Made by a program: the position numbers and the translations under genes. Source: Promethearchaeati archaeon (GTDB lineage Archaea; Asgardarchaeota; Heimdallarchaeia; JABLTI01). Taken from it: a stretch of DNA of 17,204 bases. Below the pieces are notes generated by a model, which was not told the origin of the DNA, made no database searches, and saw nothing but the letters and a program-made list of their open reading frames with translations. This document shows, in pieces, positions 494 to 15,369 of this stretch; the stretch's first letter is position 1, and each line of letters opens with the position of its first letter. The stretch covers positions 1 through 17,204 of the forward strand of contig JABLTI010000057.1 of the NCBI GenBank assembly GCA_013166835.1, read 5' to 3'.

Positions 494-2272
494 TCATTTT
501 CTTCTCTTTAAGAAGAGAACTTGACTTGCGCCAACAAAAGCTAGTATACTCATGAAAACGATTAAACCGATGCCAGAGACCTCTGTTGTGACTGTGACAT
601 CATAACCTGCTGCAGTCATATGAGCTAGAGCTTGATCAATACTGTAGTCATAAGGTTCTAAAGTTTCATCAAAACCAATGGAGACTTTCGGCCAATGAGT
701 AACACCAGGATAGCCTAAACCATCAAGAATCTCATCAACAATAACTTGTCTTGGAACCATATTACTAATCGCTTTACGAATGTGTTTACCTGATTCTGTA
801 CCTGAAATTGGACAGAGTTCACCAGTACCAATGATTGGATGCATTTGATTAACGGCTAATTCTTGGTTACCTGGCTCAAGAACTTCTGTAGAGTCAATAC
901 TTGCAAGTCCCTGAATATCACCTTGATCTATGTAGAATTCTGAATCAACAAAATCAATGTCACCACCAGCGAGAGCGGAAATAGCTCCTTCTTTATTAGA
1001 ATAGAATTCAAAGTAAATGTCATCGAATTTGGGAGCTGAACCCCAGTAATCATCGAAATAATCATTCACTGTCAAGTGAATTACACCGTTTGTGTCATCC
1101 CAGGAATGAAACTTATATGGACCGAAACCAAAAAGCTTCTCTGGATTGTCTCGTGCCCAAGTGACAGCTTGTTCACCATGATCTGCTGGAGCAGTTGTAT
1201 TCCAAATGTGTGCAGGTATAAGTAGATTGGCTAAATTACCTTCTTGAAACACGTAAGGTTGCAAGAAATTGATAGTAAAGTCATCATCATCGATTTTTAC
1301 CACTGAACTATTATCCCAATAGAATGTATTGTAGGAATAAAGAGTGTGTCCCAAGCTAGCAGTAACAGCTAATTGATAATTATAGATTACATCTTCAACA
1401 GTCACTGGAACTCCATCTGCCCAATAAAGATTTGGTCTAAGTTGACAGTTATAGGTCAATCCATCTGTACTGGTATATGCTTGAAGAGCACGACCAGAGT
1501 AGGTATTATCTGAAGGATCGCGTTCAGCTAAACCATTCCAAATCTGATGTGTCCACTGAGCATCATATGTAGATTCCACTGTCCATACATGGAAATCTTC
1601 AAAATCAGCAGGAACAGCAAAGTGTAGTTCAGATTCACCAGGGATTTCCCAATCTTCCATAGGTTGTTGTGAGGAACCCCATAATAGTGGATCCCAACCA
1701 GTTAGTCCTGGAGTATGAGCGTAAAGAGAAATCTTATAGATTATAGCAATACTTGGTTGATCTTCATAAAGCATTTCTTGTATTTCTTCAGCATATTGTA
1801 TTCTGTCTGCATAGACAAAAGATTGTGTATAATTACTAACAGCCCAATCAAACTCTACATTAGAGTATTGGTAAAAATTATCACCAGCAGGTGTTAACCC
1901 ATCTGTTGTAAATACACCAGTTGGATCAAAATCTAATCCCCAACCGTTTCCAATAAAGAATAAATCATATCCACCTTCGTCGTATGATGGTATTGGATAA
2001 GGTCCTGGGTGTCCCCATGTTCTTGGGGATATTTGAGCCCAACCTGTGTGGTCAAAAACATCTATATTAATTCCAATCTTTGGCAATTGTTCTACCATCA
2101 ATGTTGACCATTGATTTCGTGCCGGATTAGAATTTGGCGCTAATATACTTACTGAGAAAAATGGTCCCGGATTTTTAGCTTCTACTGGTGTCGCTACATA
2201 AGGTATCACCATTACGCTAAAGATGATTATCATTGGAAGAACCAGTCTTCTCGCATTTGTTCTTAGTTTCAA
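494..2272 (-). CDS. ABC transporter substrate-binding protein, family 5 (OppA/DppA-like), C-terminally membrane anchored, circularly permuted domain order
   Basis: Signal peptide; family-5 motifs DGLTYNCQLRPNLYWADGVPVTVEDV, GFGPYKF, HIRKAIS, LPKIGINI, NFYQYSNVEFD and IQEMLYEDQPSI; C-terminal TM helix plus KRRK; TTG start with GAGG RBS. Confidence 0.9.
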   Translation of the reverse strand: MKLRTNARRLVLPMIIIFSVMVIPYVATPVEAKNPGPFFSVSILAPNSNPARNQWSTLMVEQLPKIGINIDVFDHTGWAQISPRTWGHPGPYPIPSYDEGGYDLFFIGNGWGLDFDPTGVFTTDGLTPAGDNFYQYSNVEFDWAVSNYTQSFVYADRIQYAEEIQEMLYEDQPSIAIIYKISLYAHTPGLTGWDPLLWGSSQQPMEDWEIPGESELHFAVPADFEDFHVWTVESTYDAQWTHQIWNGLAERDPSDNTYSGRALQAYTSTDGLTYNCQLRPNLYWADGVPVTVEDVIYNYQLAVTASLGHTLYSYNTFYWDNSSVVKIDDDDFTINFLQPYVFQEGNLANLLIPAHIWNTTAPADHGEQAVTWARDNPEKLFGFGPYKFHSWDDTNGVIHLTVNDYFDDYWGSAPKFDDIYFEFYSNKEGAISALAGGDIDFVDSEFYIDQGDIQGLASIDSTEVLEPGNQELAVNQMHPIIGTGELCPISGTESGKHIRKAISNMVPRQVIVDEILDGLGYPGVTHWPKVSIGFDETLEPYDYSIDQALAHMTAAGYDVTVTTEVSGIGLIVFMSILAFVGASQVLFLKRRK

Positions 2273-2331: not shown

Positions 2332-2416
2332 TTCTCAATTAGGAGTTATAAGTATTCTCACTATTATGAGAATGAGTTCTATATATATATTAAATTAGTT
2401 CTTGAGTGGTTGAGAA
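2332..2416 (-). promoter_or_regulatory. Promoter and operator array of the substrate-binding protein gene
   Basis: Palindrome ATTCTCA-ctatta-TGAGAAT at 2354-2373. On the minus strand it is followed after 3 nt by TTATAA and then by another TGAGAA half-site (2337-2332). Half-sites start at 2332, 2355, 2377 and 2399. A second, degenerate palindrome TTCTTG-N6-TGAGAA is at 2399-2416. Confidence 0.75.
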
Positions 2417-2595: not shown

Positions 2596-3033
2596 TTGAC
2601 TACAACTATTCGTGTACCTCAGAGTTATGCATCACATCATAGTCGTACTGTTGCTCTTCTCCTTTGTTTATTTCTTGGAGGATTTGGGGCTCATCGTTTC
2701 TATGTAGGGAAATCTGGATCCGCTGTTCTTATGCTGATATTATCATTGTGTGGAGTTGGATGGATTTGGTCTTTGATCGACTTAATTATGATTTTAACTG
2801 GATCTTTCACAGATCACTATGGTAGATATGTTACATCTTGGGATGGTGGACCACAACAATCTACTCCAGTTGTTTCTGTAACAACTCGTCCACCACCACA
2901 GCAAGCACCCACACACCCAGTACCACCCCCTCCACAAAAACAAGCAGATGAGATGTTTTGCAATTCATGTGGTGCAATAGCTAAAAAAGATGAAACTTTT
3001 TGTAGGAATTGTGGAGCAGCTTTGCAACACTAG
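2596..3033 (+). CDS. TM2-domain membrane protein with proline-rich linker and C-terminal zinc ribbon, copy 1
   Basis: TM2 signature ALLLCLFLGGFGAHRFYVGK...WSLIDLIMIL; PPP-rich linker; CNSC...CRNC zinc ribbon. Confidence 0.9.
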   Translation: MTTTIRVPQSYASHHSRTVALLLCLFLGGFGAHRFYVGKSGSAVLMLILSLCGVGWIWSLIDLIMILTGSFTDHYGRYVTSWDGGPQQSTPVVSVTTRPPPQQAPTHPVPPPPQKQADEMFCNSCGAIAKKDETFCRNCGAALQH

Positions 3034-3175: not shown

Positions 3176-3604
3176 TTGGCAACAACTGTTCATATACAAC
3201 AAAGTAGAGTTTCACATCATAGCCGTACTGTTGCTCTTCTCCTTTGTTTATTTCTTGGAGGATTTGGGGCTCATCGTTTCTATGTAGGTAAGTCTGGATC
3301 CGCGGTTTTTATGTTACTATTGTCGCTCTGTGGATTTGGTTTAATTTGGTGGATAATTGATTTAATTATGATTTTAGCTGGATCGTTCACAGATGACTTT
3401 GGGAGATATGTTTCATCTTGGGATGGTGGACCTCAACAATCTACTCCAGTTGTTTCTGTAACAACTCATCCCCCAGTACAACGAGCACCTCCTCCCCCAC
3501 CCCCACAAAAACAATCTGATGAGATGTTTTGCAATACATGTGGTGGTCTCTGTAAAAAAGCTGAAACATTCTGTCGTAATTGTGGTGCAGCACTCCAACA
3601 TTAA
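3176..3604 (+). CDS. TM2-domain membrane protein with proline-rich linker and C-terminal zinc ribbon, copy 2
   Basis: Close paralog of 2596..3033: same TM2 motif, APPPPPPQ linker, CNTC...CRNC. Confidence 0.9.
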   Translation: MATTVHIQQSRVSHHSRTVALLLCLFLGGFGAHRFYVGKSGSAVFMLLLSLCGFGLIWWIIDLIMILAGSFTDDFGRYVSSWDGGPQQSTPVVSVTTHPPVQRAPPPPPPQKQSDEMFCNTCGGLCKKAETFCRNCGAALQH

Positions 3605-4920: not shown

Positions 4921-6099
4921 GTGGTTAAACGAGTGACTCCTATTAATGAAAATAGTGTTGAAGTAGATAAAGAGGTAATTTTAGAAGAAGATTTATCGAT
5001 TAAATCTGGAGAGACTTTAGACCCAACAGTAATGCAAAAGGAATCCAAATTAGGTTTTTTTGAAAAATTACTTGCAGTATGGGTAGCACTCTGTATGGGT
5101 ATTGGTATTTTGGTATCTATTTATTTGCCAAAATTTGGTGAAACAATAAACAATTGGAATTTATTTGAAACGTGGAGAGGTGGTATAGGCATCAATATAC
5201 CTATTGGTATTTGTTTGTTTTTTATGATGTATCCAGCTATGTTGAATCTTCAATTCAAAGAATTAAAAAAACTCGGTAGAAACCCATTGCCAATAATATT
5301 AACACTTTTTTCTAATTGGATAATAGCTCCATTAGTTGCAGCTGGTTTAGCCTATCTAATTCTTCCAGGAAACTCTGATTTAATTATTGCAGTCATCTTG
5401 TTAGGATCAAGTCCCTGTACTGCCATGGTCTTGGTTTGGGGATCACTTGCTAAAGGTAATCAAGAACAAAATGTGATAAATACAAGTATTAATACTGTAT
5501 CAATTATGTTTCTTTACGTTCCTATTGTCTCATTATTGACTGGAATAGGAAATTTGAGCATCGATAGATTAATACTATTCATCACAGTAACCATCTTTAT
5601 TGGTGCCCCATTAGTTCTTGGACTTTTAAGTAAAGTTCTATTAGTGAAAGCAAAAGGTAAAGAATGGTTTGATACAAAATATCGTCCAGTTGTTGGTAAA
5701 ATTTCTATAGTTGCACTTCTTAGCACGCTGATTATTCTCTTTTCAATCAATGGTAGTAAACTGATTGAATATCCGTTGGAATTACTAAAAGTTTCTGCAC
5801 CACTGCTTATTGGATTCGTCATTGTTGTTGGATTTAATCTTTTAATTACAAAATTATTCCGACTTCAATATCGTGAAGCAATTATTACAACGATCATTGG
5901 CAGTTCGAGTCATTTCGAAATAGCCATAGCAACAGCTCTTGGTATTAGTGCATTAGCTGCTCTTGGTACAACAATGGGGCTTTTCTGGGAAGTACCGATT
6001 ATGCTTGGATTAGTTTATCTTGGAAGATTCCTAAATAAGAAAGGATTTTGGAAAGGAAGAAAGAAGGAAGAAATATTAGTTTCCAATCAAAAAACATAA
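4921..6099 (+). CDS. acr3: Acr3-family arsenite/antimonite efflux transporter
   Basis: About 10 TM segments with Acr3 motifs MMYPAM, NWIIAPL, PCTAMVLVW (conserved Cys) and SSHFEIAIA. Confidence 0.9.
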   Translation: MVKRVTPINENSVEVDKEVILEEDLSIKSGETLDPTVMQKESKLGFFEKLLAVWVALCMGIGILVSIYLPKFGETINNWNLFETWRGGIGINIPIGICLFFMMYPAMLNLQFKELKKLGRNPLPIILTLFSNWIIAPLVAAGLAYLILPGNSDLIIAVILLGSSPCTAMVLVWGSLAKGNQEQNVINTSINTVSIMFLYVPIVSLLTGIGNLSIDRLILFITVTIFIGAPLVLGLLSKVLLVKAKGKEWFDTKYRPVVGKISIVALLSTLIILFSINGSKLIEYPLELLKVSAPLLIGFVIVVGFNLLITKLFRLQYREAIITTIIGSSSHFEIAIATALGISALAALGTTMGLFWEVPIMLGLVYLGRFLNKKGFWKGRKKEEILVSNQKT

Positions 6100-6253: not shown

Positions 6254-6880
6254 TTAACCATTATAACAATCTTTTATGACATCTTGAATGTCATATTTCA
6301 AACACAATGCAATCCAACCAACAAATTCTTTTACAGCGCTTATTCCTTTCCAATCTAGATCTGCGAATTGCTCTAGTACTTCAGGTTCAGCATGTTCTAG
6401 TAACTCAACAAATAACAGATGCTTTTCGATATCGAATCTATTTGCGATTTCTGTGAAACAAATTCCACAACCTCTTTTCTTATCAAAAATACTGCTTAGG
6501 ATCAACTTAGCTACTTCAAATTCAGCTCGTATTTCACCATCTTCGAATTTCTTTGGTTTTTTTGTAATAAAGACCTTTGCTGCTCGAGAATAAATTGTCT
6601 CGCTAATTAGAATCCCTTCATCTACAGAGGTAATTCGTTTACCTGCTTTGGCAATTAATCCAAGTTTAAGCAATTTGCTTAAATAGCGATATAAGGTTTT
6701 TTCTGATTTTTCTTTACCATGCTTCTCGAAGGCTTCTTTAATATCTGTTATTGTTAGTGGACCTTTTGCTAAAATCTTCAATACCCATGCTAAGTTTTCA
6801 TCACTGAAAGACATTGATTGTTTATCATTTAGTATGAGAATTGCTTTTTGTTTGTATGTTATTGCTTGTTGTTTTAGCAT
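6254..6880 (-). CDS. Winged helix-turn-helix (ArsR-like) transcriptional regulator 1 with helical C-terminal domain
   Basis: VLKILAKGPLTITDIKEAF...KSEKTLYRYLSKLLKLGLIAKAG wHTH pattern; AGGTGA RBS; paralog of 7344..7988; contains CGIC. Confidence 0.85.
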   Translation of the reverse strand: MLKQQAITYKQKAILILNDKQSMSFSDENLAWVLKILAKGPLTITDIKEAFEKHGKEKSEKTLYRYLSKLLKLGLIAKAGKRITSVDEGILISETIYSRAAKVFITKKPKKFEDGEIRAEFEVAKLILSSIFDKKRGCGICFTEIANRFDIEKHLLFVELLEHAEPEVLEQFADLDWKGISAVKEFVGWIALCLKYDIQDVIKDCYNG

Positions 6881-6904
6881 TTTTCAATCACCTACCGATT
6901 TATT

Positions 6905-7011
6905 TTCTTATTTTAATTACAATTTATTCTTAATCCTATGATATATTGGGTCTCAAACATTTAAAAACCTTTTCTCACATCTGTGAGAATCTTTATATAT
7001 CATTCTGAGAA
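6905..7011. promoter_or_regulatory. Divergent promoters with operator array, module 1
   Basis: Palindrome TTCTCAC-atct-GTGAGAA at 6972-6989, TATA box TTATATAT at 6993-7000, TGAGAA at 7006-7011. Further half-sites: TTCTTA 6905, TTCTTA 6927, GTCTCA 6950. Minus-strand TTTAAAT between 6950 and 6972 is a candidate TATA box for regulator 1. Confidence 0.8.
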
Positions 7012-7051
7012 TAATATCCTACACGAAAGATGCACTTGGGGTGTGTATTTA

Positions 7052-7084
7052 TCCTGATAGAATCAAGTATTGAGGATATCAGGA
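7052..7084 (+). other. RBS-overlapping hairpin in the leader of peptide A
   Basis: TCCTGATA-gaa-TCAA-gta-TTGA-gga-TATCAGGA. The 3' arm includes the first bases of the AGGAGGTGA RBS. Confidence 0.55.
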
Positions 7085-7094
7085 GGTGAAAAAA

Positions 7095-7181
7095 TTGAGA
7101 CATGACAAAAAGATCAAACAAATAATCAAGAAAGAAAAAGAAAGAGCAAGAATAAAATTTGCACTCTATACTGGAAGATAA
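7095..7181 (+). CDS. Small peptide A, 28 aa: MRHDKKIKQIIKKEKERARIKFALYTGR
   Basis: Strong RBS AGGAGGTGA 5 nt before TTG; upstream TATA box; same length and C-terminus as peptide D (8460..8546). Confidence 0.8.
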   Translation: MRHDKKIKQIIKKEKERARIKFALYTGR

Positions 7182-7215
7182 ATAACGATAAAACAAAGAG
7201 GAGTTGTTATTTATC
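7177..7215 (+). terminator. Stem-loop overlapping the peptide A stop codon (terminator or 3' stabiliser)
   Basis: GATAAATAAC (7177-7186) and GTTATTTATC (7206-7215) form a perfect 10-bp inverted repeat, extendable with G-U pairs. Confidence 0.5.
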
Positions 7216-7343
7216 GCCCATCTTTATCTATTAATGGTTTTAATGAAATCTTTTGGACGAAAAATTCTTCTCAAAAAACCGATTTTTATAATGTAAGATT
7301 AACTCAACCTTAATAGCTATAAGAAAAGAAGTGGGAAAAGGAC

Positions 7344-7988
7344 TTATTTTACGAAAATTTGCTCAAGATCTCTAGCTATATCTTGTTCGGGGATTATTGC
7401 TAACCAACCAATATATTGCAAGAGAAAATTGATACCCTGATAGTCAAGTTGAGCTACTTTCTCAAGTGTTTCATCTTTAGCATTCTCGAATAAATTAACG
7501 ACTAATTCATCTCGATCCTTATCCAGCTTATTAGCGAATTTAACAAATTCCTTCTCCGAAGCATTTTTCCCAAAATACTCGCTTAGAAGTAGTCTCGTTG
7601 CTTCCCAGACGGAATTGGCTCCTTTTTTATCAGATCCTGGTTCAGTAACAGGTGCAACAGTAATAAAGGCTATCGCAGAGCGTGTATAAATTGTTTCAGA
7701 AGTAAGATTGTCTGATGTTTTTGAGGTTATCCTTTTTCCTGCTTTAGCCACAAGTTTTACTTCTAGTAATTTGTGTAAATATCTGTAGATCGATTTATCA
7801 GATTTCTCGATGCCAATTTTCCTAAAGGATTCTTCCAAATCCCCGATGGTCATTGGTTCTTTTCTTAGAAATTTCAAAACATATCCTAGATTTTCATCCT
7901 TAAAAAGATCGAGAGTTTCTTTGTCTCGGATAATAATTACTGGTTTTTGTTTAAAAGTAATAACATTCTTGGGATCTGTAACTGCCAT
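7344..7988 (-). CDS. Winged helix-turn-helix (ArsR-like) transcriptional regulator 2
   Basis: VLKFLRKEPMTIGDLEESF...KSDKSIYRYLHKLLEVKLVAKAGKRITS. Shares IT[FY]KQK, DENL, AKAGKRITS, SETIY and GW[IL]A with regulator 1; AGGAG RBS. Confidence 0.85.
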   Translation of the reverse strand: MAVTDPKNVITFKQKPVIIIRDKETLDLFKDENLGYVLKFLRKEPMTIGDLEESFRKIGIEKSDKSIYRYLHKLLEVKLVAKAGKRITSKTSDNLTSETIYTRSAIAFITVAPVTEPGSDKKGANSVWEATRLLLSEYFGKNASEKEFVKFANKLDKDRDELVVNLFENAKDETLEKVAQLDYQGINFLLQYIGWLAIIPEQDIARDLEQIFVK

Positions 7989-8059
7989 TTGTTTTGTCTC
8001 CTTCTCTTAAAGAGATATTTTACTAATAATATAAAATCTTAATCAGTCTAATTGTTAGT

Positions 8060-8188
8060 TTCTTATCTATATAATAAATAGTTTCTCAATGTTTATAAAT
8101 ATTATTCTTAATGATGTAATTTTCCACTCTCTTATAGGTGAACTCAAGTTCTCACTATAATGAGAACCCTTATATACTGGTATGAGAA
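8060..8188. promoter_or_regulatory. Divergent promoters with operator array, module 2
   Basis: Palindrome TTCTCA-ctataa-TGAGAA at 8149-8166, TATA box TTATATA at 8170-8176, TGAGAA at 8183-8188. Half-sites at 8060 (TTCTTA), 8083 (TTCTCA), 8105 (TTCTTA) and 8127 (degenerate CTCTCT). Confidence 0.8.
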
Positions 8189-8228
8189 TAACTTCCTAAC
8201 GAATTGGTAAAGTTTGGGTGAAAAAAAA

Positions 8229-8330
8229 TTGAAAGAGAAGAAAAATATCACCACAGATAAAGATGGAAAGAAAGATAGTGAAAAAGTCAAGATTCTCTTG
8301 GCTATGTTTTACTCAGATGGATTGATATAA
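8229..8330 (+). CDS. Small peptide B, 33 aa: MKEKKNITTDKDGKKDSEKVKILLAMFYSDGLI
   Basis: GGGTGA RBS, A-run and TTG, the same start context as peptide A; first ORF after the TATA box; charged N-terminus and hydrophobic C-terminus. Confidence 0.65.
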   Translation: MKEKKNITTDKDGKKDSEKVKILLAMFYSDGLI

Positions 8331-8356
8331 TCACACTGTTCGTGGAGGAAACCACA

Positions 8357-8428
8357 ATGAAAGATCACAGAAATCTTAAAGGCCAAATCAAGAAGGAATT
8401 AACTCCCATCAAGAGAGTTACAAAATAA
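8357..8428 (+). CDS. Small peptide C, 23 aa: MKDHRNLKGQIKKELTPIKRVTK
   Basis: GGAGGA RBS (8344-8349) 7 nt before ATG; N-terminus resembles peptide A (IKKE). Confidence 0.5.
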   Translation: MKDHRNLKGQIKKELTPIKRVTK

Positions 8429-8459
8429 AAAGAATCGGTAGAATGGAGGAATCACGCTG

Positions 8460-8546
8460 ATGCAAAAAAAGCAAGAGCACAAAAAGAAAATCCAAGCAGA
8501 TAAAAATAAAACCAGAATGAAATTCGCACTATTTACAGGCAGATAA
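8460..8546 (+). CDS. Small peptide D, 28 aa: MQKKQEHKKKIQADKNKTRMKFALFTGR
   Basis: GGAGGA RBS (8445-8450); C-terminal RMKFALFTGR matches RIKFALYTGR of peptide A with synonymous codon differences. Confidence 0.8.
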   Translation: MQKKQEHKKKIQADKNKTRMKFALFTGR

Positions 8547-8550
8547 GAAC

Positions 8551-8611
8551 GCTCCTTCCATGGGGAGTGCTCCTTATCTCCCTTTCTGGTATTATTTTTT
8601 GGGGAAGAGAT
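8551..8611 (+). terminator. GC-richer hairpin(s) after the peptide cluster
   Basis: GCTCCTT-ccat-GGGGAGT (8551-8568, with G-U pairs) and ATCTC-CC...GGGG-aa-GAGAT (8576-8611) around a T-rich stretch. Confidence 0.4.
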
Positions 8612-8639
8612 TAAGTCTATTTTTATTAATTCTATTCGG

Positions 8640-8671
8640 AATATGTCACTTAAGAAATTCTTAAATGATGA
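8640..8671 (+). promoter_or_regulatory. Conserved promoter motif of surface-protein paralog 1
   Basis: aatatgtcacttaagaaattcttaaatgatga is 25/32 identical to 10699-10730; contains TTAAAT; begins 67 nt before ATG 8707. Confidence 0.7.
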
Positions 8672-8706
8672 ATTTCTCACGTTTAGATAGTAATAGGTGT
8701 TTTCCT

Positions 8707-9684
8707 ATGAACCGAAAAATTAAGATTTTGATGTTGACTAAAATAGTACTTGTACTATTTCTTATTGGTAATTATACCACAACCCTTGCTGCTGATAGAG
8801 AATGGCACGTAGGAGACATTTTTACTTTTACTGACTCAATACATCAGATTATCACCGACCATGACATTGAATTCGATTCACAAGATACAACCGAAATTGT
8901 AGTGCAAGATGCATTTACTTATAATATTACCGAAATCAATTTACTAACCGGAAGGTATTGGGCTTTTATGACTGATACATCTGGTGCAGGAAGCATTATC
9001 GGTTATAATTTTACTATTGATGACTACGTTAGCACCTACATTGATAATATCAATACAGCTCTAACAGTTGATTACGAATGGGACTATGGCACAAATAGCA
9101 CAAAATTAGTTGATTTTGGCTTTGGTCTTGCTATTTGGTTACTAATTGAACCTGATTGGGCAAAACTCAATACTGCTTTTATTGATATGTTTAATGAAAC
9201 AGAAATCATAGAGACAGTTGCAGATCCTTATCAACCAATTACTTACAATTTTACTCTTGGAGATTTCCTAAGTTCAATTTCCTATACTTTCATGGGTAAA
9301 GATAATCTTGCAGACGCTAAAAAACAAATGAAATCTGACACCACTGAATGGAGTCTAGTATTTGATTTGACTAATGTCATTTATACAGATGTATTAAATG
9401 GAACTCTTGGATACGATGAGTATTATCCATATCCGAATGCGATTTTCACCTATGAAATGGGTTACTCAAAAGGCGGTGTTTTGCAAAGAGCTCACACGAA
9501 AATTGATTATAGTGTTCTTCAGGGCAATTATAGAGGTGATGTTTATATGAAGATCCTCACAATTTTTGGAGATCTCGAAGCTCTAACCGGTAATTTTGCT
9601 TATTGGATGGCAGTTCCAGGATTTCTGTTAATTGTGGCGGTTGTGCGAATTGCTAAACGAAAATCAAATAGGAGGAATAGGTGA
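8707..9684 (+). CDS. Membrane-anchored surface protein, paralog 1 (start revised from 8665)
   Basis: AGGTG RBS before ATG 8707; MNRKIKILML matches MSKKIRILML of paralog 3; signal peptide; shared motifs YEWDY, LLIEPDW, ADPYQPI, MGK; C-terminal TM helix plus basic tail. Confidence 0.8.
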   Translation: MNRKIKILMLTKIVLVLFLIGNYTTTLAADREWHVGDIFTFTDSIHQIITDHDIEFDSQDTTEIVVQDAFTYNITEINLLTGRYWAFMTDTSGAGSIIGYNFTIDDYVSTYIDNINTALTVDYEWDYGTNSTKLVDFGFGLAIWLLIEPDWAKLNTAFIDMFNETEIIETVADPYQPITYNFTLGDFLSSISYTFMGKDNLADAKKQMKSDTTEWSLVFDLTNVIYTDVLNGTLGYDEYYPYPNAIFTYEMGYSKGGVLQRAHTKIDYSVLQGNYRGDVYMKILTIFGDLEALTGNFAYWMAVPGFLLIVAVVRIAKRKSNRRNR

Positions 9685-9689
9685 TTCAA

Positions 9690-10649
9690 ATGAAAACTAA
9701 AAATAAACTTATCTTTGTTCTATCTTTTGTCTCAATAATTCTTCTATTTAGTACCTTTACAAATGCGAATGCAGCTGAAGCCCCATGGGCTGATGGAAGT
9801 ATATTTACTTGGGCTGCTGAAGATGGTATAATCCTTCATACAGTTGATTACGAAGCAGATATTGAGCAAATTATTGAATCCCGTTCAGGATCATTATTCA
9901 CTTATAATCTAACAGATGTGGATAATAGCACATTAACCTATGATTATGATGTGCTTGGAATACTCGGTGTTGGCGGTATTACTTCCTATGACGTGCAAGC
10001 CTTCATTGGATCATTCTCCCTTGGAAGTATGTTCACAGTAAGTTATGTTTGGGACTATGAATACAATATAACAGTGTTGGACACATTTGGATTTACACTA
10101 CCATATTGGTTATTGATAGAACCAAATTGGACAACCGTTAATAGTAAATTTAATGAAGAATTCAACGGTAGTACAATAATGGACACTGTTGCAGATCCAT
10201 ACCTACCTCTTATCCATAATTTTACATTGAATGATTTGCTTAATGACGCTAATTCTTTTTCAATTATGGGTAAAAGCACCTTAGCAGAAGCTAAACAACA
10301 ATTCACCCCCTCAACAACCAGATGGACATTCGAGTTTGATTACTCAAATGTTTTGCTAACAGGTAGATTCAATTCCACAGCTGGTTACAACAACTACTAT
10401 AAATACGAAGTGCTAACTGAACAAGCTACTCTAGAATATAACGCTAATGGGGTTCTCAAATATTATGAAGATAATGGAGAAGTACAAGAAACATATATGG
10501 ATAGAATGATTAGCATAAAGTACAATTTCTACATCAATTTAGGCGACTTTCTCACAACAGAGACATCCCCATTCTGTTTTCTAATAGCAATTCCTGCTGT
10601 AGCAAGTATGGTCATTTTTGTGAAATGGATGAATAAGAGAAAGAATTAA
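9690..10649 (+). CDS. Membrane-anchored surface protein, paralog 2 (start ATG 9690 or GTG 9681)
   Basis: AGGTGA-N5-ATG; signal peptide; YVWDY, LLIEPNW, ADPYLPL, MGK, WTFEFD; TETSPF followed by TM helix and KRKN. Confidence 0.8.
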   Translation: MKTKNKLIFVLSFVSIILLFSTFTNANAAEAPWADGSIFTWAAEDGIILHTVDYEADIEQIIESRSGSLFTYNLTDVDNSTLTYDYDVLGILGVGGITSYDVQAFIGSFSLGSMFTVSYVWDYEYNITVLDTFGFTLPYWLLIEPNWTTVNSKFNEEFNGSTIMDTVADPYLPLIHNFTLNDLLNDANSFSIMGKSTLAEAKQQFTPSTTRWTFEFDYSNVLLTGRFNSTAGYNNYYKYEVLTEQATLEYNANGVLKYYEDNGEVQETYMDRMISIKYNFYINLGDFLTTETSPFCFLIAIPAVASMVIFVKWMNKRKN

Positions 10650-10698
10650 TCTCTTGTTTCTTCATTTTTTCTGCTTTTTTTTCTTTTGATTCTCCTTA

Positions 10699-10730
10699 AA
10701 TATGTCGTGTTAGGAATTCTTATATGAGGA
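10699..10730 (+). promoter_or_regulatory. Conserved promoter motif of surface-protein paralog 3
   Basis: aatatgtcgtgttaggaattcttatatgagga, with TTATAT; begins 67 nt before ATG 10766. Confidence 0.7.
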
Positions 10731-10765
10731 TGCTATCTAATCTAATTAGTGTTTAGGTGATGCTT

Positions 10766-11734
10766 ATGAGCAAAAAAATTAGGATTTTGATGTTGATCAA
10801 TGCAATTGCAGCTATGATTTTAGTAAGCAGTATTAGCACTGCCCAAGCTGTTCCACCAGGTTGGAATGCTGGCGACATAATTGTCTGGGGCATGAGGAAT
10901 ACAACAAAAGCTTCGACTTATGAAGAAGGTGAAGATGTTTTAGGTTCAGAAGTTACTATGAATAACGATCTTGAATATAATGTAACCGCACTTGATACTT
11001 TAAACAGGGAATTTGATGCTATTGAGACTGATGCTAGCGGTTCAACTTTTAGAGATAATAAAGACTATGGTGCTGCCGAGTTTGTAAGTGATGAGCTAGA
11101 TCTTTATGATTTCTTCAGTGTTAATTATGTCTGGGATTACGTAAACAATGTCTCAGTTTGCACCAGCTTTGATGCATATTTCTTTGACAGTTTCATTTCG
11201 ATTTATTTCTTAATTGAACCAGACTGGGCCATAATAAACGATGGTTACGTAGACATGTTTAATACTTCAGTAGTTATGGATACACTAGCTGATCCATATC
11301 AACCAATCATTTACAATTATACACTTGGAGACATTATTGATGCAATTTCTATGAAAATAATGGGTAAAAACGAACTTAGTTCTGCCATCAATCAATTCAC
11401 AGATACCGTGAGAAAATGGACTTTTGAATTTGACCTCAGCGGTTACATAAAAAATGGTCAATTTAATGGTACAGATATAATCTACTATGATTATGAAGAA
11501 TACAAAATCTACGTTGAATTAGAATACACTAAAGAAGGTGTGTTGGATCGATTAGAATATAGTTTTATTGACAAAATAACCATTAATGATGTAACTAATG
11601 AGTTTGATTACAAAGAAGTAATTGCACAAGGTGGTATGAAAGCTGCTGCAGCAAACTTCGCGACTTTCGCAGCTATAGGCGGTCTCGTCTCCACAGCGTT
11701 AATTGCTATTTTCATCAAACGTAAGAAGAAGTGA
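10766..11734 (+). CDS. Membrane-anchored surface protein, paralog 3 (start revised from 10757)
   Basis: AGGTGA-N5-ATG; signal peptide; YVWDY, FLIEPDW, ADPYQPI, MGK, WTFEFD; ANF followed by TM helix and KRKKK; T-tract downstream. Confidence 0.8.
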   Translation: MSKKIRILMLINAIAAMILVSSISTAQAVPPGWNAGDIIVWGMRNTTKASTYEEGEDVLGSEVTMNNDLEYNVTALDTLNREFDAIETDASGSTFRDNKDYGAAEFVSDELDLYDFFSVNYVWDYVNNVSVCTSFDAYFFDSFISIYFLIEPDWAIINDGYVDMFNTSVVMDTLADPYQPIIYNYTLGDIIDAISMKIMGKNELSSAINQFTDTVRKWTFEFDLSGYIKNGQFNGTDIIYYDYEEYKIYVELEYTKEGVLDRLEYSFIDKITINDVTNEFDYKEVIAQGGMKAAAANFATFAAIGGLVSTALIAIFIKRKKK

Positions 11735-11891
11735 ATTTTTAATTCCACTTTTTTCTTTTTTCTTTTCTCTTTTGCCTTAATCTGAAGTTATTTTAAAGTT
11801 CTTCACATTTTATTCATTAAGGATCAATTGATCTACGAAAAACCAATTCATACGAGTGGATTTTATGAACTGGAGCCTGAGGAAATAGACG

Positions 11892-14800
11892 ATGTTTTCA
11901 AAAATTAGATCATATTTTATTATATTTATAATCCTAGCTACCCCCCTAAATTCATTATTTTTGAGCATGTTAGTAGCAAGTCCTAACTCAAGCTCCGCTA
12001 TACTTTCGAATGATTATATTGAAGGTACAGGAGATTTATCTCCGAATGCAGAGAATGGATTACTTTGGAGTTCCATTTCCGGATTAACAGGAGAGTTAAC
12101 TACTTCTCCGATAATTGACTTTAATACCGAGAGTGAATTAATGCAAATAGTCTACATTGGAACAGAAATTGGATTAACAAAAATACAAGTAGAAACTGGG
12201 AACATCTATTGGACTCATCCTACTCCTGGAGCTATACTTAGTATAACTCCAGTTGAGGACATAACAGGTGATAATAATAAAGAAATCCTTGTAACAGTTG
12301 ATAATCAAGAATTCAACAATACTGAAATGTTAAATGGTTTAACTGGAGAAATCATTTGGTCACATCGTCCAACAGAGACCGTTTGGCAAGAAGGTATAGG
12401 TTTTTCACAACAAGAAACGCGAACTTGGTCTGGTTTGCTCATAGAAGACATTTCTGGTGATGGAACTAGAGATGTGTTGGTTTCATCATATAAATCAGTC
12501 TTTGCCTTAGATGCAGAAGATGGTTCAGTATTATGGCAACAAAGTGCTTCTAATGATGTCTGGAATACTGAATTAATGGATGATGATGTAGATTCGGATG
12601 GATATGATGATATTGTAATAGGTTCACAAGATGGTGAGCTAATGCTTCTCAGTGGAGAAGATGGTTCAATTATCTGGGAAATTATTGCTGCAGAGGAAGC
12701 GAGATATATCGATCAAACTCAAGGTATCGAATATACCTTTGATCGCAATGTATATGATGTTCGCAAGTGTTTTGACATGAATGGTGATGGTAAGAAAGAT
12801 ATTCTCACTACAGATGAGAACGGTTATTGTGCAATTTATGATGTCATTTCAGGCGAACTAATTGATCGAGTACTTGCTTATAGTAGGACCGGACCTGAAA
12901 CAGATCAGGCTTCTTTTGGCAGCAAAGATTTCTATAATCCTATGTCAATGGATGTTGTCGATGATTATGGATTGACAAAAGTCCTTACTGCTGCACGTTC
13001 AGATGCTGTTTTTAGTAATCTCACACTCTCTCTTCTAAATCTAGGGATGAATGATCTATATGTTGATTGGAGTATTTCATCTGTCAATATTGAAGATGTT
13101 AGAAGTATTGCAACAAGCGTAGCGACGGAAGGTAATGGAACTTATACTAAAATGATTATTCCCACAGGAATCATGGGTTCTTCACAATTTGAGAGAACAA
13201 TAGAAGTATATGCTCTATTCAACAACTCTATGATAGCTCAATGGAATCTCACAGTGTTAAATACTGAAAGCGATTTTCAGTTAGACTTTGGAGATACCTC
13301 AGAAGGCCAATACCCATTTAGTGGCAATCATGCATTCTTCGTTAGAGATTTTCAAGGATCACCAGAGGAAGAAGTGCTTATTTATCTAGCAGGATACGGT
13401 TTATATCTCCTAGATGGAGATACCGGAGATTTACTATGGAGTCAAATAAAATCAGCAAAAGTAAAAATCGAACCCTATTTTGATGTTAATTCCGATTCAA
13501 CCATTGATATACTAAGAAAAGAATACTATTATCTTGACCAGTACAGTACTAGTCGTTTCCGTATACCAAGGATAACTATGATTAGTGGCGATTCCGGCGA
13601 AACAATTTGGGATCATGAAATAGATTATGAAGATCGAGAATTAGTAGGTGGAGGATACTTAAGCATTCTACAAGCGGAAGATATTACAAATGATTCAATT
13701 CCTGATTTATGGCTTGCTCAGCAAGAATATGATAACTGGGAATTTAATCTGGTTAATGTTTCAAAAGTCAAATTACTAGACGGTGCTACTGGAGCCATTG
13801 TTTGGGAATCATTACCAGCTAATAGTTCAAAGGTATACTCTCAAGAGCAAATGAGATTAACGTCGATATCTCCTATTGCTGATCAAGATAATGATGAAAT
13901 TCAAGATATTTTAATAGGATGTCAAAGAAGTTACATTTATTGTAGGAGTGGTTTTGATGGGGCACTAATCTGGAATATTACTCGAGAAGCAGCACCTTTT
14001 GATCCACATTATAGAAATTGGATTCCATATACCCCACTTATTTCCGGTGTTGGGAACATACAAGGAAATACCACAGATGATTTTGTAATTCTGGGTGATG
14101 GGCAAGTACAATTAGTTGATTCTGATAATTTCACAACAGTTATGTGGTTATGGTTTAATCCACTTGGTTGGATTGATGAGCAAAATTTTAAAATCCATAT
14201 AAATTGGGCTCAGAATGAATTATTCGCTATTTTTACCATTAATAAAAATGATAAACAATATACAGCTTTTATCGATCTTGTCACTGGAACTTTGGATCAT
14301 GAAATTCTTGGGGAAATGAATCAATTCAATATTCAATTCTTTGCTGCTGATTTTAATTTAGATGGAACAAATGATCATTTACTATACCGACCTTATGGTA
14401 GTGAAGATTTTACGGAAGGAACATACATTATCAATGGAATCACTGGTAGTGTCTTAAGTTTTTATTCAACCTTTTACCCGCAATTTGAACGCTGGTATTG
14501 GCTTGTTGATCAACTCTACAGATTTGGAGCTGATAGTTTCGTAGATGTATACGAAGATGTAAACTCCGATGGAATTCCTGAAATTGTCTCTGGTTTTTCC
14601 ATTGGCAAGCATAATAAGGAAGATCTAGGCCAAGGAATGGCTGTAGAAATAATTGATGTCTCGACGATAAATCCAGATGTTATAAAATATGAATTCGTAA
14701 AAATAGAGAAAGATCAATATTCATCCCCACCACTTTTACCTGCTGGTTATACTCGGACTATTGGTGATGTAACTGGTGACGGAAAAGCAGAGATTCTTAT

Positions 14801-15362
14801 CTCTTTAGTTACTCCAGAAGGAGAATTTAAGACAATAATATTAGATATTTCGAAGGATGGTGGAGTTTGGAAGGAAATCACTGATATTGTCTATGACTCA
14901 ATAATTCCAGCAGAACTTAATGGAACATTAGATGGAGATTTAGTTCTTTGTGATCTTAATGGACGAATTAGAGCTTTAGATAATGAGTTTGCTGTCACAA
15001 TTACAGATTTCCAAGTAATTCAACAAGGAGTTGGACAATACTACCTAGAGTGGAGTAGTAATGCAGAGAATGTAATGTCTAAAATCTTTATTGATCATGA
15101 AGTAGTATCAACTGTGTTCACTTCAGAAGCAGAAATTTTCTTGAGTGGTGGAGAGCACAATCTAACTATTTCAGTTAGTGATCGAAATGGAATAAGTGCT
15201 TTTACTAACATGATAGTTTCAATTGATAGAGGTGGTGGGTTGCTAATAGTATGGATAGCGGTGGGAGTACTAACTATTGGTTTTGTTGGATTGAAATTAT
15301 TCTTCAGATTTAAACGGAAAGAAGACTTAACGGACTTCGGTCCAGATAGAGGAGGAACGTGA
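11892..15362 (+). CDS. Large single-pass surface protein with FG-GAP/VCBS-like Ca-binding and PQQ-like beta-propeller repeats
   Basis: About 12 D-x-[NTD]-x-D-G-like loops (DITGDNNKEILV, DISGDGTRDVLV, DVDSDGYDDIVI, DMNGDGKKDILT, DVTGDGKAEILI and others) alternating with [TD]G-x-[IVL]-[ILV]-W motifs; beta-rich Ig-like segment; C-terminal TM helix and short tail. Confidence 0.82.
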   Translation: MFSKIRSYFIIFIILATPLNSLFLSMLVASPNSSSAILSNDYIEGTGDLSPNAENGLLWSSISGLTGELTTSPIIDFNTESELMQIVYIGTEIGLTKIQVETGNIYWTHPTPGAILSITPVEDITGDNNKEILVTVDNQEFNNTEMLNGLTGEIIWSHRPTETVWQEGIGFSQQETRTWSGLLIEDISGDGTRDVLVSSYKSVFALDAEDGSVLWQQSASNDVWNTELMDDDVDSDGYDDIVIGSQDGELMLLSGEDGSIIWEIIAAEEARYIDQTQGIEYTFDRNVYDVRKCFDMNGDGKKDILTTDENGYCAIYDVISGELIDRVLAYSRTGPETDQASFGSKDFYNPMSMDVVDDYGLTKVLTAARSDAVFSNLTLSLLNLGMNDLYVDWSISSVNIEDVRSIATSVATEGNGTYTKMIIPTGIMGSSQFERTIEVYALFNNSMIAQWNLTVLNTESDFQLDFGDTSEGQYPFSGNHAFFVRDFQGSPEEEVLIYLAGYGLYLLDGDTGDLLWSQIKSAKVKIEPYFDVNSDSTIDILRKEYYYLDQYSTSRFRIPRITMISGDSGETIWDHEIDYEDRELVGGGYLSILQAEDITNDSIPDLWLAQQEYDNWEFNLVNVSKVKLLDGATGAIVWESLPANSSKVYSQEQMRLTSISPIADQDNDEIQDILIGCQRSYIYCRSGFDGALIWNITREAAPFDPHYRNWIPYTPLISGVGNIQGNTTDDFVILGDGQVQLVDSDNFTTVMWLWFNPLGWIDEQNFKIHINWAQNELFAIFTINKNDKQYTAFIDLVTGTLDHEILGEMNQFNIQFFAADFNLDGTNDHLLYRPYGSEDFTEGTYIINGITGSVLSFYSTFYPQFERWYWLVDQLYRFGADSFVDVYEDVNSDGIPEIVSGFSIGKHNKEDLGQGMAVEIIDVSTINPDVIKYEFVKIEKDQYSSPPLLPAGYTRTIGDVTGDGKAEILISLVTPEGEFKTIILDISKDGGVWKEITDIVYDSIIPAELNGTLDGDLVLCDLNGRIRALDNEFAVTITDFQVIQQGVGQYYLEWSSNAENVMSKIFIDHEVVSTVFTSEAEIFLSGGEHNLTISVSDRNGISAFTNMIVSIDRGGGLLIVWIAVGVLTIGFVGLKLFFRFKRKEDLTDFGPDRGGT

Positions 15363-15369
15363 TAAAACA

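What the first reader, a model, noticed from the sequence alone, without database searches (positions are those of the whole stretch)
6254..8546. Duplicated regulator-peptide modules: candidate archaeal peptide signalling or regulatory system
Seen in the sequence: two tandem modules, each with a wHTH regulator on the minus strand, a shared operator/TATA block, and divergent unannotated peptide ORF(s) with strong RBSs. Module 1 carries peptide A; module 2 carries peptides B, C and D. Established: a regulator divergently paired with a short peptide that has a basic N-terminus and hydrophobic C-terminus is the layout of Rgg/SHP pheromone loci in Firmicutes. These regulators, however, look ArsR-like with a roughly 100-aa helical C-domain, not RRNPP/TPR proteins. 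Inference: the peptides are ligands, co-repressors or anti-repressors of the adjacent regulators, possibly exported and re-imported, which would be a quorum-sensing-like circuit in a probable Asgard archaeon.
Basis: partly seen in the sequence, partly recalled or inferred. Interest (0 to 1): 0.92.

Follow-up and report, generated by a model that had tools for sequence, protein, structure and literature searches.

The report
Asgard repressor and microprotein gene modules
Two neighbouring repressor genes of an Asgard archaeon each face a shared control site that drives tiny, never-annotated genes for lysine-rich proteins of 23 to 33 residues; the genes are real and confined to one genus, but what the proteins do, and whether they act back on the repressors, is still open.

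Summary
R1 (6254-6880, -) and R2 (7344-7988, -) are 45% identical wHTH paralogs. Their closest solved fold is PH1932, an ArsR homologue. Each faces a conserved block: a TTCTCA-N6-TGAGAA palindrome, a TATA box and a third half-site. That block precedes SD-led small ORFs A, B, C and D.

The ORFs are very probably real genes. The A/D family has 41 distinct versions, and its invariant Gly uses all four codons. A six-frame profile finds it in 11 of 11 genomes of the genus, at 1-13 copies each, and in 0 of 1 genomes of the sister genus. Among 71 other genomes of the class there is one marginal hit. One metatranscriptome contig covers B-C-D.

Among regulator homologs, 16 of the 19 closest loci carry such a peptide and 0 of 61 distant Asgard loci do. 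In this genome, 5 of 12 family members have no regulator beside them and 3 lie next to other ArsR-type genes.

Best reading: repressor-gated genes for polycationic single-helix microproteins that act inside the cell. Binding to the regulators was neither shown nor excluded. Nothing tested supports export or quorum sensing. One point does favour it: an Opp/Nik-like binding-protein gene in the window carries the same operator.

The parts
6254..6880 (-). R1, a 208-aa PH1932-like ArsR-type wHTH regulator with a helical C-terminal domain
   Evidence: ORF. Pfam HTH_5, 27.1 bits. AF2 model pLDDT 91.9. Foldseek best hits 1ULY/2CWE, E 2e-8.
7344..7988 (-). R2, a 214-aa paralog of R1
   Evidence: 45% identity to R1, E 7e-53. 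Orthologs 91% and 88% identical in two other species.
6972..7011 (.). Operator/promoter block 1: palindrome 6972-6989, TATA 6992-6999, third half-site 7006-7011
   Evidence: Direct repeat with block 2. Composite site 7 times in the genome against 0 for the control. Conserved in G083 and G087.
7095..7181 (+). Microprotein A, 28 aa from TTG 7095 (31 aa from GTG 7086)
   Evidence: ORF. SD at 7081-7089. Family profile E 1e-13. AF2 gives a single helix over residues 2-29, pLDDT 90.6.
7172..7220 (+). Hairpin whose 5' arm holds the stop codon of A; T-runs follow
   Evidence: -14.9 kcal/mol, z -3.5, 0 of 200 shuffles fold as well. Inverted repeat I15.
8149..8188 (.). Operator/promoter block 2: palindrome 8149-8166, TATA 8169-8176, half-site 8183-8188
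8229..8330 (+). Microprotein B, 33 aa, a family of its own
   Evidence: The start codon is TTG, ATG or GTG at one place in three loci. Conserved in five loci.
8357..8428 (+). Microprotein C, 23 aa
   Evidence: GGAGG lies 8 nt upstream. Relatives in B-C-D clusters of other species.
8460..8546 (+). Microprotein D, 28 aa, same family as A
   Evidence: Family profile E 1e-14. Codon evidence.
8242..8539 (+). Stretch covered by the one contig of a metatranscriptome library
   Evidence: 298-nt contig with 2 differences, spanning B, C and D. Nothing else in 6254-8700 was covered in that run.
8538..8581 (+). Hairpin overlapping the stop of D, followed by a T6 run at 8595-8600
   Evidence: Present in the MFE fold, but the 83-nt stretch is not better than shuffles (z -1.4). 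The same hairpin follows the paralogous peptide on C21.
2355..2372 (.). Third copy of the operator; the composite points to the minus strand, towards the binding-protein gene
   Evidence: Conserved in G083 and G087.
494..2272 (-). Family-5 solute-binding protein with a C-terminal membrane anchor; probable member of the same regulon
   Evidence: Pfam SBP_bac_5, E 3e-44. Distant NCBIfam hits to Opp4A and NikA, all below their cut-offs.

Best explanation
The two modules are repressor-gated microprotein genes.

R1 and R2 belong to a wHTH family seen here almost only under Asgard labels. The family has a PH1932-like fold, and its DNA-reading part is conserved while its C-terminal helical domain varies. 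As dimers they most likely bind the TTCTCA-N5-6-TGAGAA palindrome that abuts the TATA box, plus the half-site near the transcription start. That would keep TBP, TFB and RNA polymerase off the rightward promoter, and probably off their own leftward promoter too.

When a cue sensed by the variable domain releases them, two short transcripts would be made. One carries A. The other carries B, C and D. Each ends at a hairpin and a T-run.

The products are polycationic single helices of 23-33 residues. In the A/D family an Arg ten residues from the end and a penultimate Gly are invariant, and a short hydrophobic cluster lies between them. I take them to act inside the cell as effectors, on nucleic acid, ribosomes or a protein partner. 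Feedback on wHTH regulators is a live minority option.

Shown: the genes, their conservation, their codon pattern, the shared operator, and one RNA-library contig. Inferred: repression, the cue, and the intracellular role.
For: Coding:
- There are 41 distinct family tails. The invariant Gly uses GGA 16, GGC 11, GGT 10 and GGG 4.
- The invariant Arg uses AGA 35, CGA 4 and AGG 1. Stops are TAA 34, TAG 4 and TGA 3.
- Per-position entropy is 1.12, 0.78 and 1.33 for codon positions 1, 2 and 3.
- The start of B changes between TTG, ATG and GTG at one place. SD motifs sit 7-10 nt upstream.

Spread: the six-frame profile hits 11 of 11 genomes of the genus, 0 of 1 in the sister genus and 1 marginal of 71 others in the class.

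RNA: a 298-nt contig at 8242-8539 in an RNA library lies inside the predicted unit.

Operator:
- The 50-nt repeat links the two modules.
- The composite site occurs 7 times against 0 for the control, and 4 of the 7 precede peptide genes.
- The palindrome alone occurs 32 times against 7.
- The palindrome also stands about 100-200 nt upstream of many regulator homologs across Asgard lineages.

Regulators:
- The wHTH part is 61% identical on average among 13 paralogs, and the recognition helix 70%. The C-domain is 31%.
- The fold matches PH1932.

Linkage: by my reading, 27 of the 28 closer paralogs in the family's genomes have conserved lysine-rich small ORFs upstream, and 0 of 13 distant ones do. 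For regulator loci from genome contigs the counts are 16 of 19 and 0 of 61.

Not membrane-active: the hydrophobic moment is not above shuffles in any of 20 members, and mean hydrophobicity runs from -0.22 to -0.57.
Against: - There are no ribosome-profiling or peptide data. The RNA evidence is one contig from one library, which may hold DNA, and contigs cannot show strand or ends.
- No binding of the regulators to the operator has been shown. An activator role is not excluded.
- The function of the microproteins is unknown. Pfam and the ESM Atlas give nothing.
- Family members lie next to wHTH genes of four architectures in 7 of 10 loci of this genome, which has only 24 HTH_5 hits. That hints at a closer tie than regulator and target. 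The PH1932-like cases probably stem from one duplicated module, so they are not independent.
- All paralogs seem to read one operator, so a module-by-module reading may be too simple.
Confidence: 0.55

Rival explanations
1. The microproteins are intracellular partners of the wHTH regulators, acting as anti-repressors, co-repressors or trans-acting basic tails. Each module would then be a feedback loop, in the manner of SinI/SinR or the phage TF-smORF modules.
For: - Family members lie next to PH1932-like regulators at four loci and next to three other HTH_5 proteins: C95 divergent, C37 upstream, C138 downstream.
- Tight co-inheritance: 16 of the 19 closest regulator loci carry a peptide.
- The sensor domain varies while DNA reading is conserved.
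- The peptide is a confident single helix, a common binding element.
Against: - 5 of 12 members in this genome have no regulator beside them, and these carry a different conserved promoter.
- Regulator homologs outside the genus work without such peptides (0 of 61).
- Adjacency is equally expected for a plain local repressor and its target.
Confidence: 0.22
2. The peptides are exported, perhaps trimmed to the conserved C-terminal octapeptide, then re-imported and sensed by the regulators, giving quorum-sensing-like signalling.
For: - The conserved part is C-terminal. From recall, this also holds for SHP/XIP-type pheromones.
- The Opp/Nik-like binding-protein gene at 494-2272 carries the same composite operator in three species.
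- A DrrA-type ABC transporter ends the operon downstream of D.
- There are several paralogous pairs per genome.
Against: - There is no hydrophobic or double-glycine export segment, and the peptides carry net charge +5 to +10.
- The whole peptide is conserved, not only the tail.
- The regulators have no TPR domain.
- The ABC operon is absent from the C21 and C247 loci and does not follow A.
- The binding protein has no permease or ATPase genes beside it, and its family also binds nickel, opines and glutathione.
- All paralogs share one operator, so the pairs are not insulated.
Confidence: 0.07
3. The peptides are leaderless cationic antimicrobial peptides (archaeocins), and the ABC transporter downstream gives export or immunity.
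For: - Size and charge fit, and there is no leader.
- NCBIfam places the ATPase nearest to drrA, lantibiotic-protection and PSM-export ATPases, all below their cut-offs.
Against: - No amphipathicity: in all 20 members tested, at least 19.9% of shuffles reach the observed moment.
- The transporter is found at one locus only.
- Copies lie beside housekeeping genes.
Confidence: 0.06
4. The small ORFs are not translated. The conserved stretches are cis-regulatory RNA, or leader ORFs that only attenuate downstream genes.
For: - A hairpin overlaps the stop codon of A and of D.
- D lies upstream of an operon.
Against: - The codon-position pattern and the four-codon use at the invariant Gly argue for translation.
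- SD motifs and the shifting start codon argue the same way.
- A, the C21 cluster and the C247 pair have no co-directional gene behind them.
- No Rfam family matches.
Confidence: 0.04

Closest known systems
PH1932 of Pyrococcus horikoshii (PDB 1ULY, 2CWE), an ArsR homologue of unknown function; more broadly ArsR/SmtB wHTH repressors
   Same: Best fold match over the whole length (E 2.3e-8, TM 0.55/0.59): an N-terminal strand, a wHTH with a long wing, and a helical C-terminal domain. R1 passes Pfam HTH_5.
   Different: Sequence identity is 16-17%. There are no matches in NCBIfam. No metal site is known. The family is seen here almost only under Asgard labels and has its own operator.
Phr heat-shock regulator of Pyrococcus furiosus (PDB 2P4W)
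   Same: wHTH plus a long helical C-terminal part. From recall, it is an archaeal repressor that binds next to the TATA box and controls its own gene.
   Different: The fold hit is weak (E 8.8e-3, TM 0.32). There is no evidence here for heat sensing.
Rgg/SHP and other RRNPP pheromone loci of Firmicutes
   Same: A regulator paired divergently with a short ORF that has a basic start and a conserved C-terminal part, with several paralogous pairs per genome.
   Different: The regulator has no TPR domain. The peptide has no hydrophobic export segment. No processing protease or dedicated exporter recurs.
Phage TF-smORF modules (Silpe et al. 2023, PMC10432266; abstract read)
   Same: A transcription factor next to a small-protein gene that it controls. 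Such modules are alike in logic, not in sequence.
   Different: In phages the factor activates the small gene, and the small protein inactivates the cI repressor. Here the operator position suggests repression, the loci are chromosomal, and the pattern gave 0 viral contigs.
SinR/SinI of Bacillus subtilis (recalled, no call)
   Same: An HTH repressor with a helical oligomerisation domain, and a small helical protein that could bind it.
   Different: SinI resembles the SinR C-domain. I saw no such likeness here by eye and ran no formal comparison. No binding has been shown.

Membership tests
ArsR/SmtB-type wHTH (Pfam HTH_5) | Match to the HTH_5 profile above its curated cut-off | tested here: met
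   R1 scores 27.1 bits against a cut-off of 22. R2 has no Pfam hit but is 45% identical to R1.
ArsR/SmtB-type wHTH (Pfam HTH_5) | A metal or metalloid site in helix 3 or 5 | not tested
   R1 and some paralogs carry Cys pairs in the C-domain and at the C-terminus, and R2 has none (alignment). No site was modelled.
PH1932-like winged-helix family | Whole-length fold likeness to 1ULY/2CWE | tested here: met
   Foldseek E 2.3e-8 and 4.0e-7, TM 0.54-0.59 over 202-209 columns, on a model of pLDDT 91.9.
RRNPP (Rgg/SHP-like) peptide signalling | TPR-type peptide-binding domain in the regulator | tested here: not met
   No TPR family appears in Pfam. The fold hits are wHTH regulators only.
RRNPP (Rgg/SHP-like) peptide signalling | Pro-peptide with a hydrophobic or signal segment for export | tested here: not met
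   Mean hydrophobicity is -0.22 to -0.57 and net charge +5 to +10 in 20 members.
RRNPP (Rgg/SHP-like) peptide signalling | Oligopeptide permease for re-import | tested here: inconclusive
   A family-5 binding-protein gene shares the operator. Its hits to Opp4A and NikA are far below their cut-offs, and no permease genes lie beside it.
TF-smORF modules | A small-protein gene next to, and controlled by, a transcription factor | tested here: inconclusive
   Adjacency and a shared operator are shown. Control itself is inferred.
TF-smORF modules | The small protein inactivates a repressor | not testable with these tools
   This needs binding or genetic assays.
Leaderless cationic bacteriocins / helical AMPs | Amphipathic helix | tested here: not met
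   The hydrophobic moment is 0.01-0.29 and not above 2000 shuffles in any of the 20 members.
Attenuator leader peptides | A co-directional structural gene behind the leader in all copies | tested here: not met
   A, the C21 cluster and the C247 pair are followed by convergent genes.

The most novel reading that the evidence does not exclude
This would be a peptide-based signalling circuit in an Asgard archaeon. The lysine-rich precursors would be exported and trimmed to the conserved C-terminal octapeptide. The peptide would be taken up through the Opp/Nik-like binding protein, whose gene carries the same operator. It would then be sensed by the variable helical domain of the PH1932-like repressors, with several peptide-repressor pairs per genome feeding into one shared operator.

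A second bold reading concerns the octapeptide itself. It is identical to the strand just before the HIGH motif of the cell's own tryptophanyl-tRNA synthetase. The microproteins might therefore copy or compete with that element.
Probability: 0.07. Interest if true: 0.93.

Novelty: new variant of a known kind. Interest (0 to 1): 0.58.

Why it matters
Almost nothing is known about gene regulation or small proteins in Asgard archaea, the closest known relatives of eukaryotes. This locus offers three things.

- A transcription-factor family seen here almost only under Asgard labels, with a clear and testable operator found upstream of many homologs across several Asgard lineages.
- A microprotein family that no gene caller on record has called. 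It is expanded to as many as 13 copies per genome in one genus.
- A repeated physical link between that family and winged-helix regulators.

The operator and the peptides are short enough for direct tests with recombinant protein and synthetic peptide, without a culture. If the microproteins modulate the regulators, or are signals, this would be a new regulatory principle for archaea. If they are stress effectors, they are still a new protein family.

Tried and rejected
- Co-folding of R1 (two copies, 41-row alignment) with peptide A (two copies, 20-row alignment) gave ipSAE 0.01 and 0.00 against a mark of 0.32. The verdict was no answer. This is neither for nor against binding.
- Pfam on 13 peptides at E up to 10 gave no family. 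The ESM Atlas gave no usable hit.
- The homolog search refuses queries under 40 aa, so the large protein collections were not searched for the peptides. Five peptide versions were looked up by exact match and none was found.
- Rfam on 6800-8750 gave only a chance-level hit (E 0.26).
- The bacterial promoter and terminator scan is not suited to archaea. It found 10 promoter-like sites against 8.0 expected. Its 'terminators' at 6972-6989 are the operator itself.
- Small ORFs with a shared arginine-rich motif near distant regulator homologs turned out to be out-of-frame readings of a methylase-like gene. No tRNA lies there.
- Of the 14 hits from the metagenome pattern scan, only 2 contigs (L193, L198) are true family members. 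Viral contigs gave 0.
- In the RNA run, the regulators and A had no cover. That is not evidence of silence.
- The C95 regulator is not a hidden PH1932-like member (hhalign probability 3%; profile E above 1).
- The likeness to tryptophanyl-tRNA synthetase is real as an 8-residue identity. None of 20000 shuffles of the 8-mer occurs in 1.15 million residues of ORFs. It does not extend upstream. It also does not co-vary: five genomes of the genus have Val and one has Ser in the synthetase where four have Ala.
Supplements of papers were closed and not asked for.
- I found no paper on this family. Four full-text searches with these term sets listed nothing on these peptides or on this regulator family in Asgard archaea. 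I saw search listings, the abstract of PMC10432266, one passage of PMC6316755 and two passages of 10.64898/2025.12.15.694180.


Full report
**What is there**

The window is contig C143 of a 3.56-Mb assembly with 33.7% G+C. On the minus strand lie R1 (6254-6880, 208 aa) and R2 (7344-7988, 214 aa). They are 45% identical (E 7e-53).

Each regulator is preceded by a conserved block. One search reports it as a 50-nt direct repeat, 6972-7021 and 8149-8198, 72% identical. From the sequence the block holds three elements:
- an inverted repeat, TTCTCA-N6-TGAGAA (6972-6989; 8149-8166);
- a TATA box two or three bases further on (6992-6999; 8169-8176);
- a third TGAGAA half-site (7006-7011; 8183-8188), about where an archaeal transcript would start.

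Rightward of block 1 lies ORF A. Rightward of block 2 lie ORFs B, C and D. I correct the starts as follows:
- A: TTG 7095, with an alternative GTG at 7086 that lies inside the SD AGGAGGTGA at 7081-7089.
- B: TTG 8229.
- C: ATG 8357.
- D: ATG 8460.

C and D have GGAGG 8 and 10 nt upstream. B has GGGTGA 7 nt upstream. B, C and D are in three different frames.

A hairpin overlaps the stop codon of A (7172-7220; -14.9 kcal/mol, z -3.5). Another follows D (8538-8581) and is followed by a T6 run. That second stretch does not fold better than shuffles (z -1.4).

**Are the small ORFs genes?**

All are in the window's genus, and the reversed control gave 0 hits. The hits differ at synonymous positions.

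I aligned 13 and then 20 A/D-type peptides. A six-frame profile search of the class gave these results:
- 11 of 11 genomes of the genus matched, with 1 to 13 matches each;
- 0 of 1 genomes of the sister genus matched;
- 1 marginal hit (E 0.0035) appeared among 71 other genomes.

- the invariant Gly uses GGA 16, GGC 11, GGT 10 and GGG 4;
- the invariant Arg uses AGA 35, CGA 4 and AGG 1;
- a conserved Leu uses five codons;
- stops are TAA 34, TAG 4 and TGA 3;
- entropy per codon position is 1.12, 0.78 and 1.33.

The start of B is TTG here, ATG in G083 and GTG in the paralogous locus on C21.

One run of an RNA library holds a single 298-nt contig, 8242-8539 with 2 differences, that spans B, C and D. 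It holds nothing else of 6254-8700. This fits a tricistronic unit from about 8200 to about 8590. It is one contig of one library, it is without strand information, and DNA carry-over is possible.

None of five peptide versions is in the 15-billion-protein collection. I put the chance that A-D are translated genes at about 0.9.

**The regulators**

R1 passes Pfam HTH_5. R2 has no hit of its own.

An AF2 model of R1 from 41 paralogs has pLDDT 91.9. It shows two N-terminal strands, a wHTH with a long three-stranded wing, and five C-terminal helices. Foldseek ranks PH1932, an ArsR homologue of Pyrococcus horikoshii, first (1ULY E 2.3e-8, 2CWE E 4.0e-7, TM 0.54-0.59). PadR and VanR follow at E 3.5e-4 to 9.8e-4, and the Phr heat-shock regulator at E 8.8e-3.

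A profile search of 1.84 billion representatives finds 429 relatives at E up to 1e-3. Some are tandem fusions of about 450-520 aa.

In genome contigs, 95 of 166 candidate stretches encode a relative, and the best 80 were kept. Their titles name Heimdall-, Hod-, Hermod-, Thor-, Odin-, Kari- and Prometh(e)archaeota, or 'uncultured archaeon' or 'archaeon'. One assembly is labelled Bathyarchaeia; its loci resemble those of the window's genus.

The genus holds 0-7 paralogs per genome at E up to 1e-15. This genome has 11 by profile.

Among 13 paralogs, mean pairwise identity is 61% in the wHTH, 70% in the recognition helix and 31% in the C-domain. The paralogs therefore seem to read one operator and to differ in what they sense.

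**The operator**

The palindrome occurs 32 times in the genome, against 7 for a reversed control. Seven of the 32 lie inside an ORF of at least 120 aa, so 25 are at least not inside such an ORF.

The composite of palindrome plus a half-site 12-22 nt further on occurs 7 times, against 0 for the control:
- four precede peptide genes (C143 twice, C21, C247);
- two precede proteins of 209 and 83 aa on C21;
- one lies in this window at 2355-2372 and points to the minus strand.

The last site faces the family-5 solute-binding protein gene at 494-2272, and it is conserved in G083 and G087.

In the regulator homologs I read from other Asgard lineages, the palindrome stands about 100-200 nt upstream of the regulator gene, with a further half-site nearer the start. 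From this I infer that autoregulation is the ancestral state. I also infer that the genus has placed microprotein promoters under the same site.

That a site abutting BRE/TATA and the start site means repression is drawn from what is known of archaeal repressors. This is recalled, not tested.

**How tight is the link between regulator and peptide?**

Of 41 distinct regulators in the family's genomes, 27 of the 28 closer ones have conserved lysine-rich small ORFs upstream, directly or behind a tandem partner. None of the 13 more distant ones do. This is my reading.

For regulator loci from genome contigs, 16 of the 19 closest have an A/D-family hit within 1.5 kb and 0 of the 61 others do. The three close loci without one appear to match the loci of three species that carry two other lysine-rich small ORFs instead.

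The link also fails in the other direction. A local profile census finds 12 A/D-family members in this genome, 10 at E below 1e-3:
- Four lie by PH1932-like regulators: C143 twice, C21 and C247.
- Three lie by other HTH_5 proteins: a 219-aa one divergent on C95, a 143-aa one upstream on C37, and a 368-aa one downstream on C138. The A2 profile does not recognise any of the three, and hhalign gave 3% probability for the C95 one.
- Five lie on C59, C253 and C123, next to a Ras-like GTPase, adenosine kinase, NAD kinase, a DNA methylase and a bactofilin.

The five copies without a regulator carry a different, strongly conserved promoter with its own palindrome.

The genome has only 24 HTH_5 hits, so 7 of 10 loci beside a wHTH gene is far more than chance. 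However, the four PH1932-like cases probably descend from one module.

**What the microproteins look like**

AF2 models peptide A as one helix over residues 2-29, with pLDDT 90.6. Net charge is +5 to +10 and mean hydrophobicity is -0.22 to -0.57. The helical hydrophobic moment is not above shuffles in any of 20 members.

They are therefore not amphipathic membrane peptides, and they have no export segment. The hydrophobic residues sit together near the C-terminus, between the invariant Arg and the invariant Gly.

Pfam and the ESM Atlas give nothing.

**A curiosity**

The last eight residues of A (window 7155-7178) are identical to residues 85-92 of the genome's tryptophanyl-tRNA synthetase. 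That is the strand just before the HIGH motif. None of 20000 shuffles of the 8-mer occurs in the 1.15 million residues of ORFs.

The likeness stops there. It also does not co-vary across the genus. I record it without building on it.

**Reading**

The best-supported account is a set of repressor-gated microprotein genes whose products act in the cell (0.55).

The partner reading, with the microprotein acting on the wHTH regulator, stays open (0.22). The one co-folding job gave no verdict.

The quorum-sensing reading (0.07) is kept alive by three things:
- the operator on the binding-protein gene;
- the ABC operon downstream of D;
- the C-terminal position of the conserved motif.

It meets none of the defining features that I could test.

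Antimicrobial peptide (0.06) and non-coding readings (0.04) are weak.

**Novelty**

The regulators are new members of a known fold family, with a newly defined operator found upstream of many homologs across several Asgard lineages.

The microproteins are a new family confined to one genus. The metagenome scan found it on only 2 further contigs, and the viral scan found it on none.

The module as a whole is a new variant of the known kind 'transcription factor beside a small-protein gene'. Four literature searches with my term sets found no description of it.

Noticed in passing
window 2355-2372 and 494-2272 (-): A third copy of the operator composite faces the family-5 (Opp/Nik-like) solute-binding protein gene and is conserved in two other species. 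No permease or ATPase genes lie beside the gene.
   Followed up: partly
window 7155-7178; G000:C197:6943-8103 (-): The last eight residues of peptide A equal the strand just before the HIGH motif of the genome's tryptophanyl-tRNA synthetase. None of 20000 shuffles of the 8-mer occurs in the ORF set. There is no co-variation across the genus.
   Followed up: partly
G000:C59:21730-22101, C253:41374-41691, C123:3555-3742, C249:237-420: Microprotein genes without a neighbouring regulator share another conserved promoter. It has a 7+7 palindrome about 45 nt upstream of a BRE/TATA-like stretch and a near-identical 5' leader. This suggests a second regulon for the same family.
   Followed up: partly
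window 4921-6099 (+): An ACR3-like arsenite efflux protein (TIGR00832, 246 bits against a cut-off of 283) lies convergent with R1. R1 and some paralogs carry Cys pairs in the C-domain and at the C-terminus, while R2 has none. A metalloid or thiol cue is conceivable.
   Followed up: no
window 8665-17204 (+): An operon of three paralogous secreted proteins (322-339 aa, C-terminal anchor, no Pfam family), a 1156-aa FG-GAP/PQQ beta-propeller surface protein, and a DrrA-type ABC ATPase with its permease. It is syntenic in G083 and G087.
   Followed up: partly
window 2596-3033 and 3176-3604 (+): Two paralogous small membrane proteins with a proline-rich linker and a C-terminal Cys-rich (zinc-ribbon-like) end. 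Neither was matched to a family: the first was scanned against NCBIfam and the second was not scanned.
   Followed up: no
G000:C213:579-1676 (-); G083:C92:2147-3235 (-): A class-I W/Y synthetase paralog (33-34% identical to the TrpRS) has one in-frame TAG in both of these species and none in the copies listed for five other species.
   Followed up: no
proteins P0037, P0039, P0051 and others: Some relatives of the regulator are tandem fusions of about 450-520 aa with two matched stretches. This echoes the tandem gene pairs seen on C21 and C208.
   Followed up: no
L071, L080, L082, L083, L086, L087, L095, L107: In other Asgard lineages the regulator homolog is often divergent from a conserved protein of unknown family, at least about 220 aa long (the ORFs run past the 900-nt stretch scanned).
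   Followed up: no
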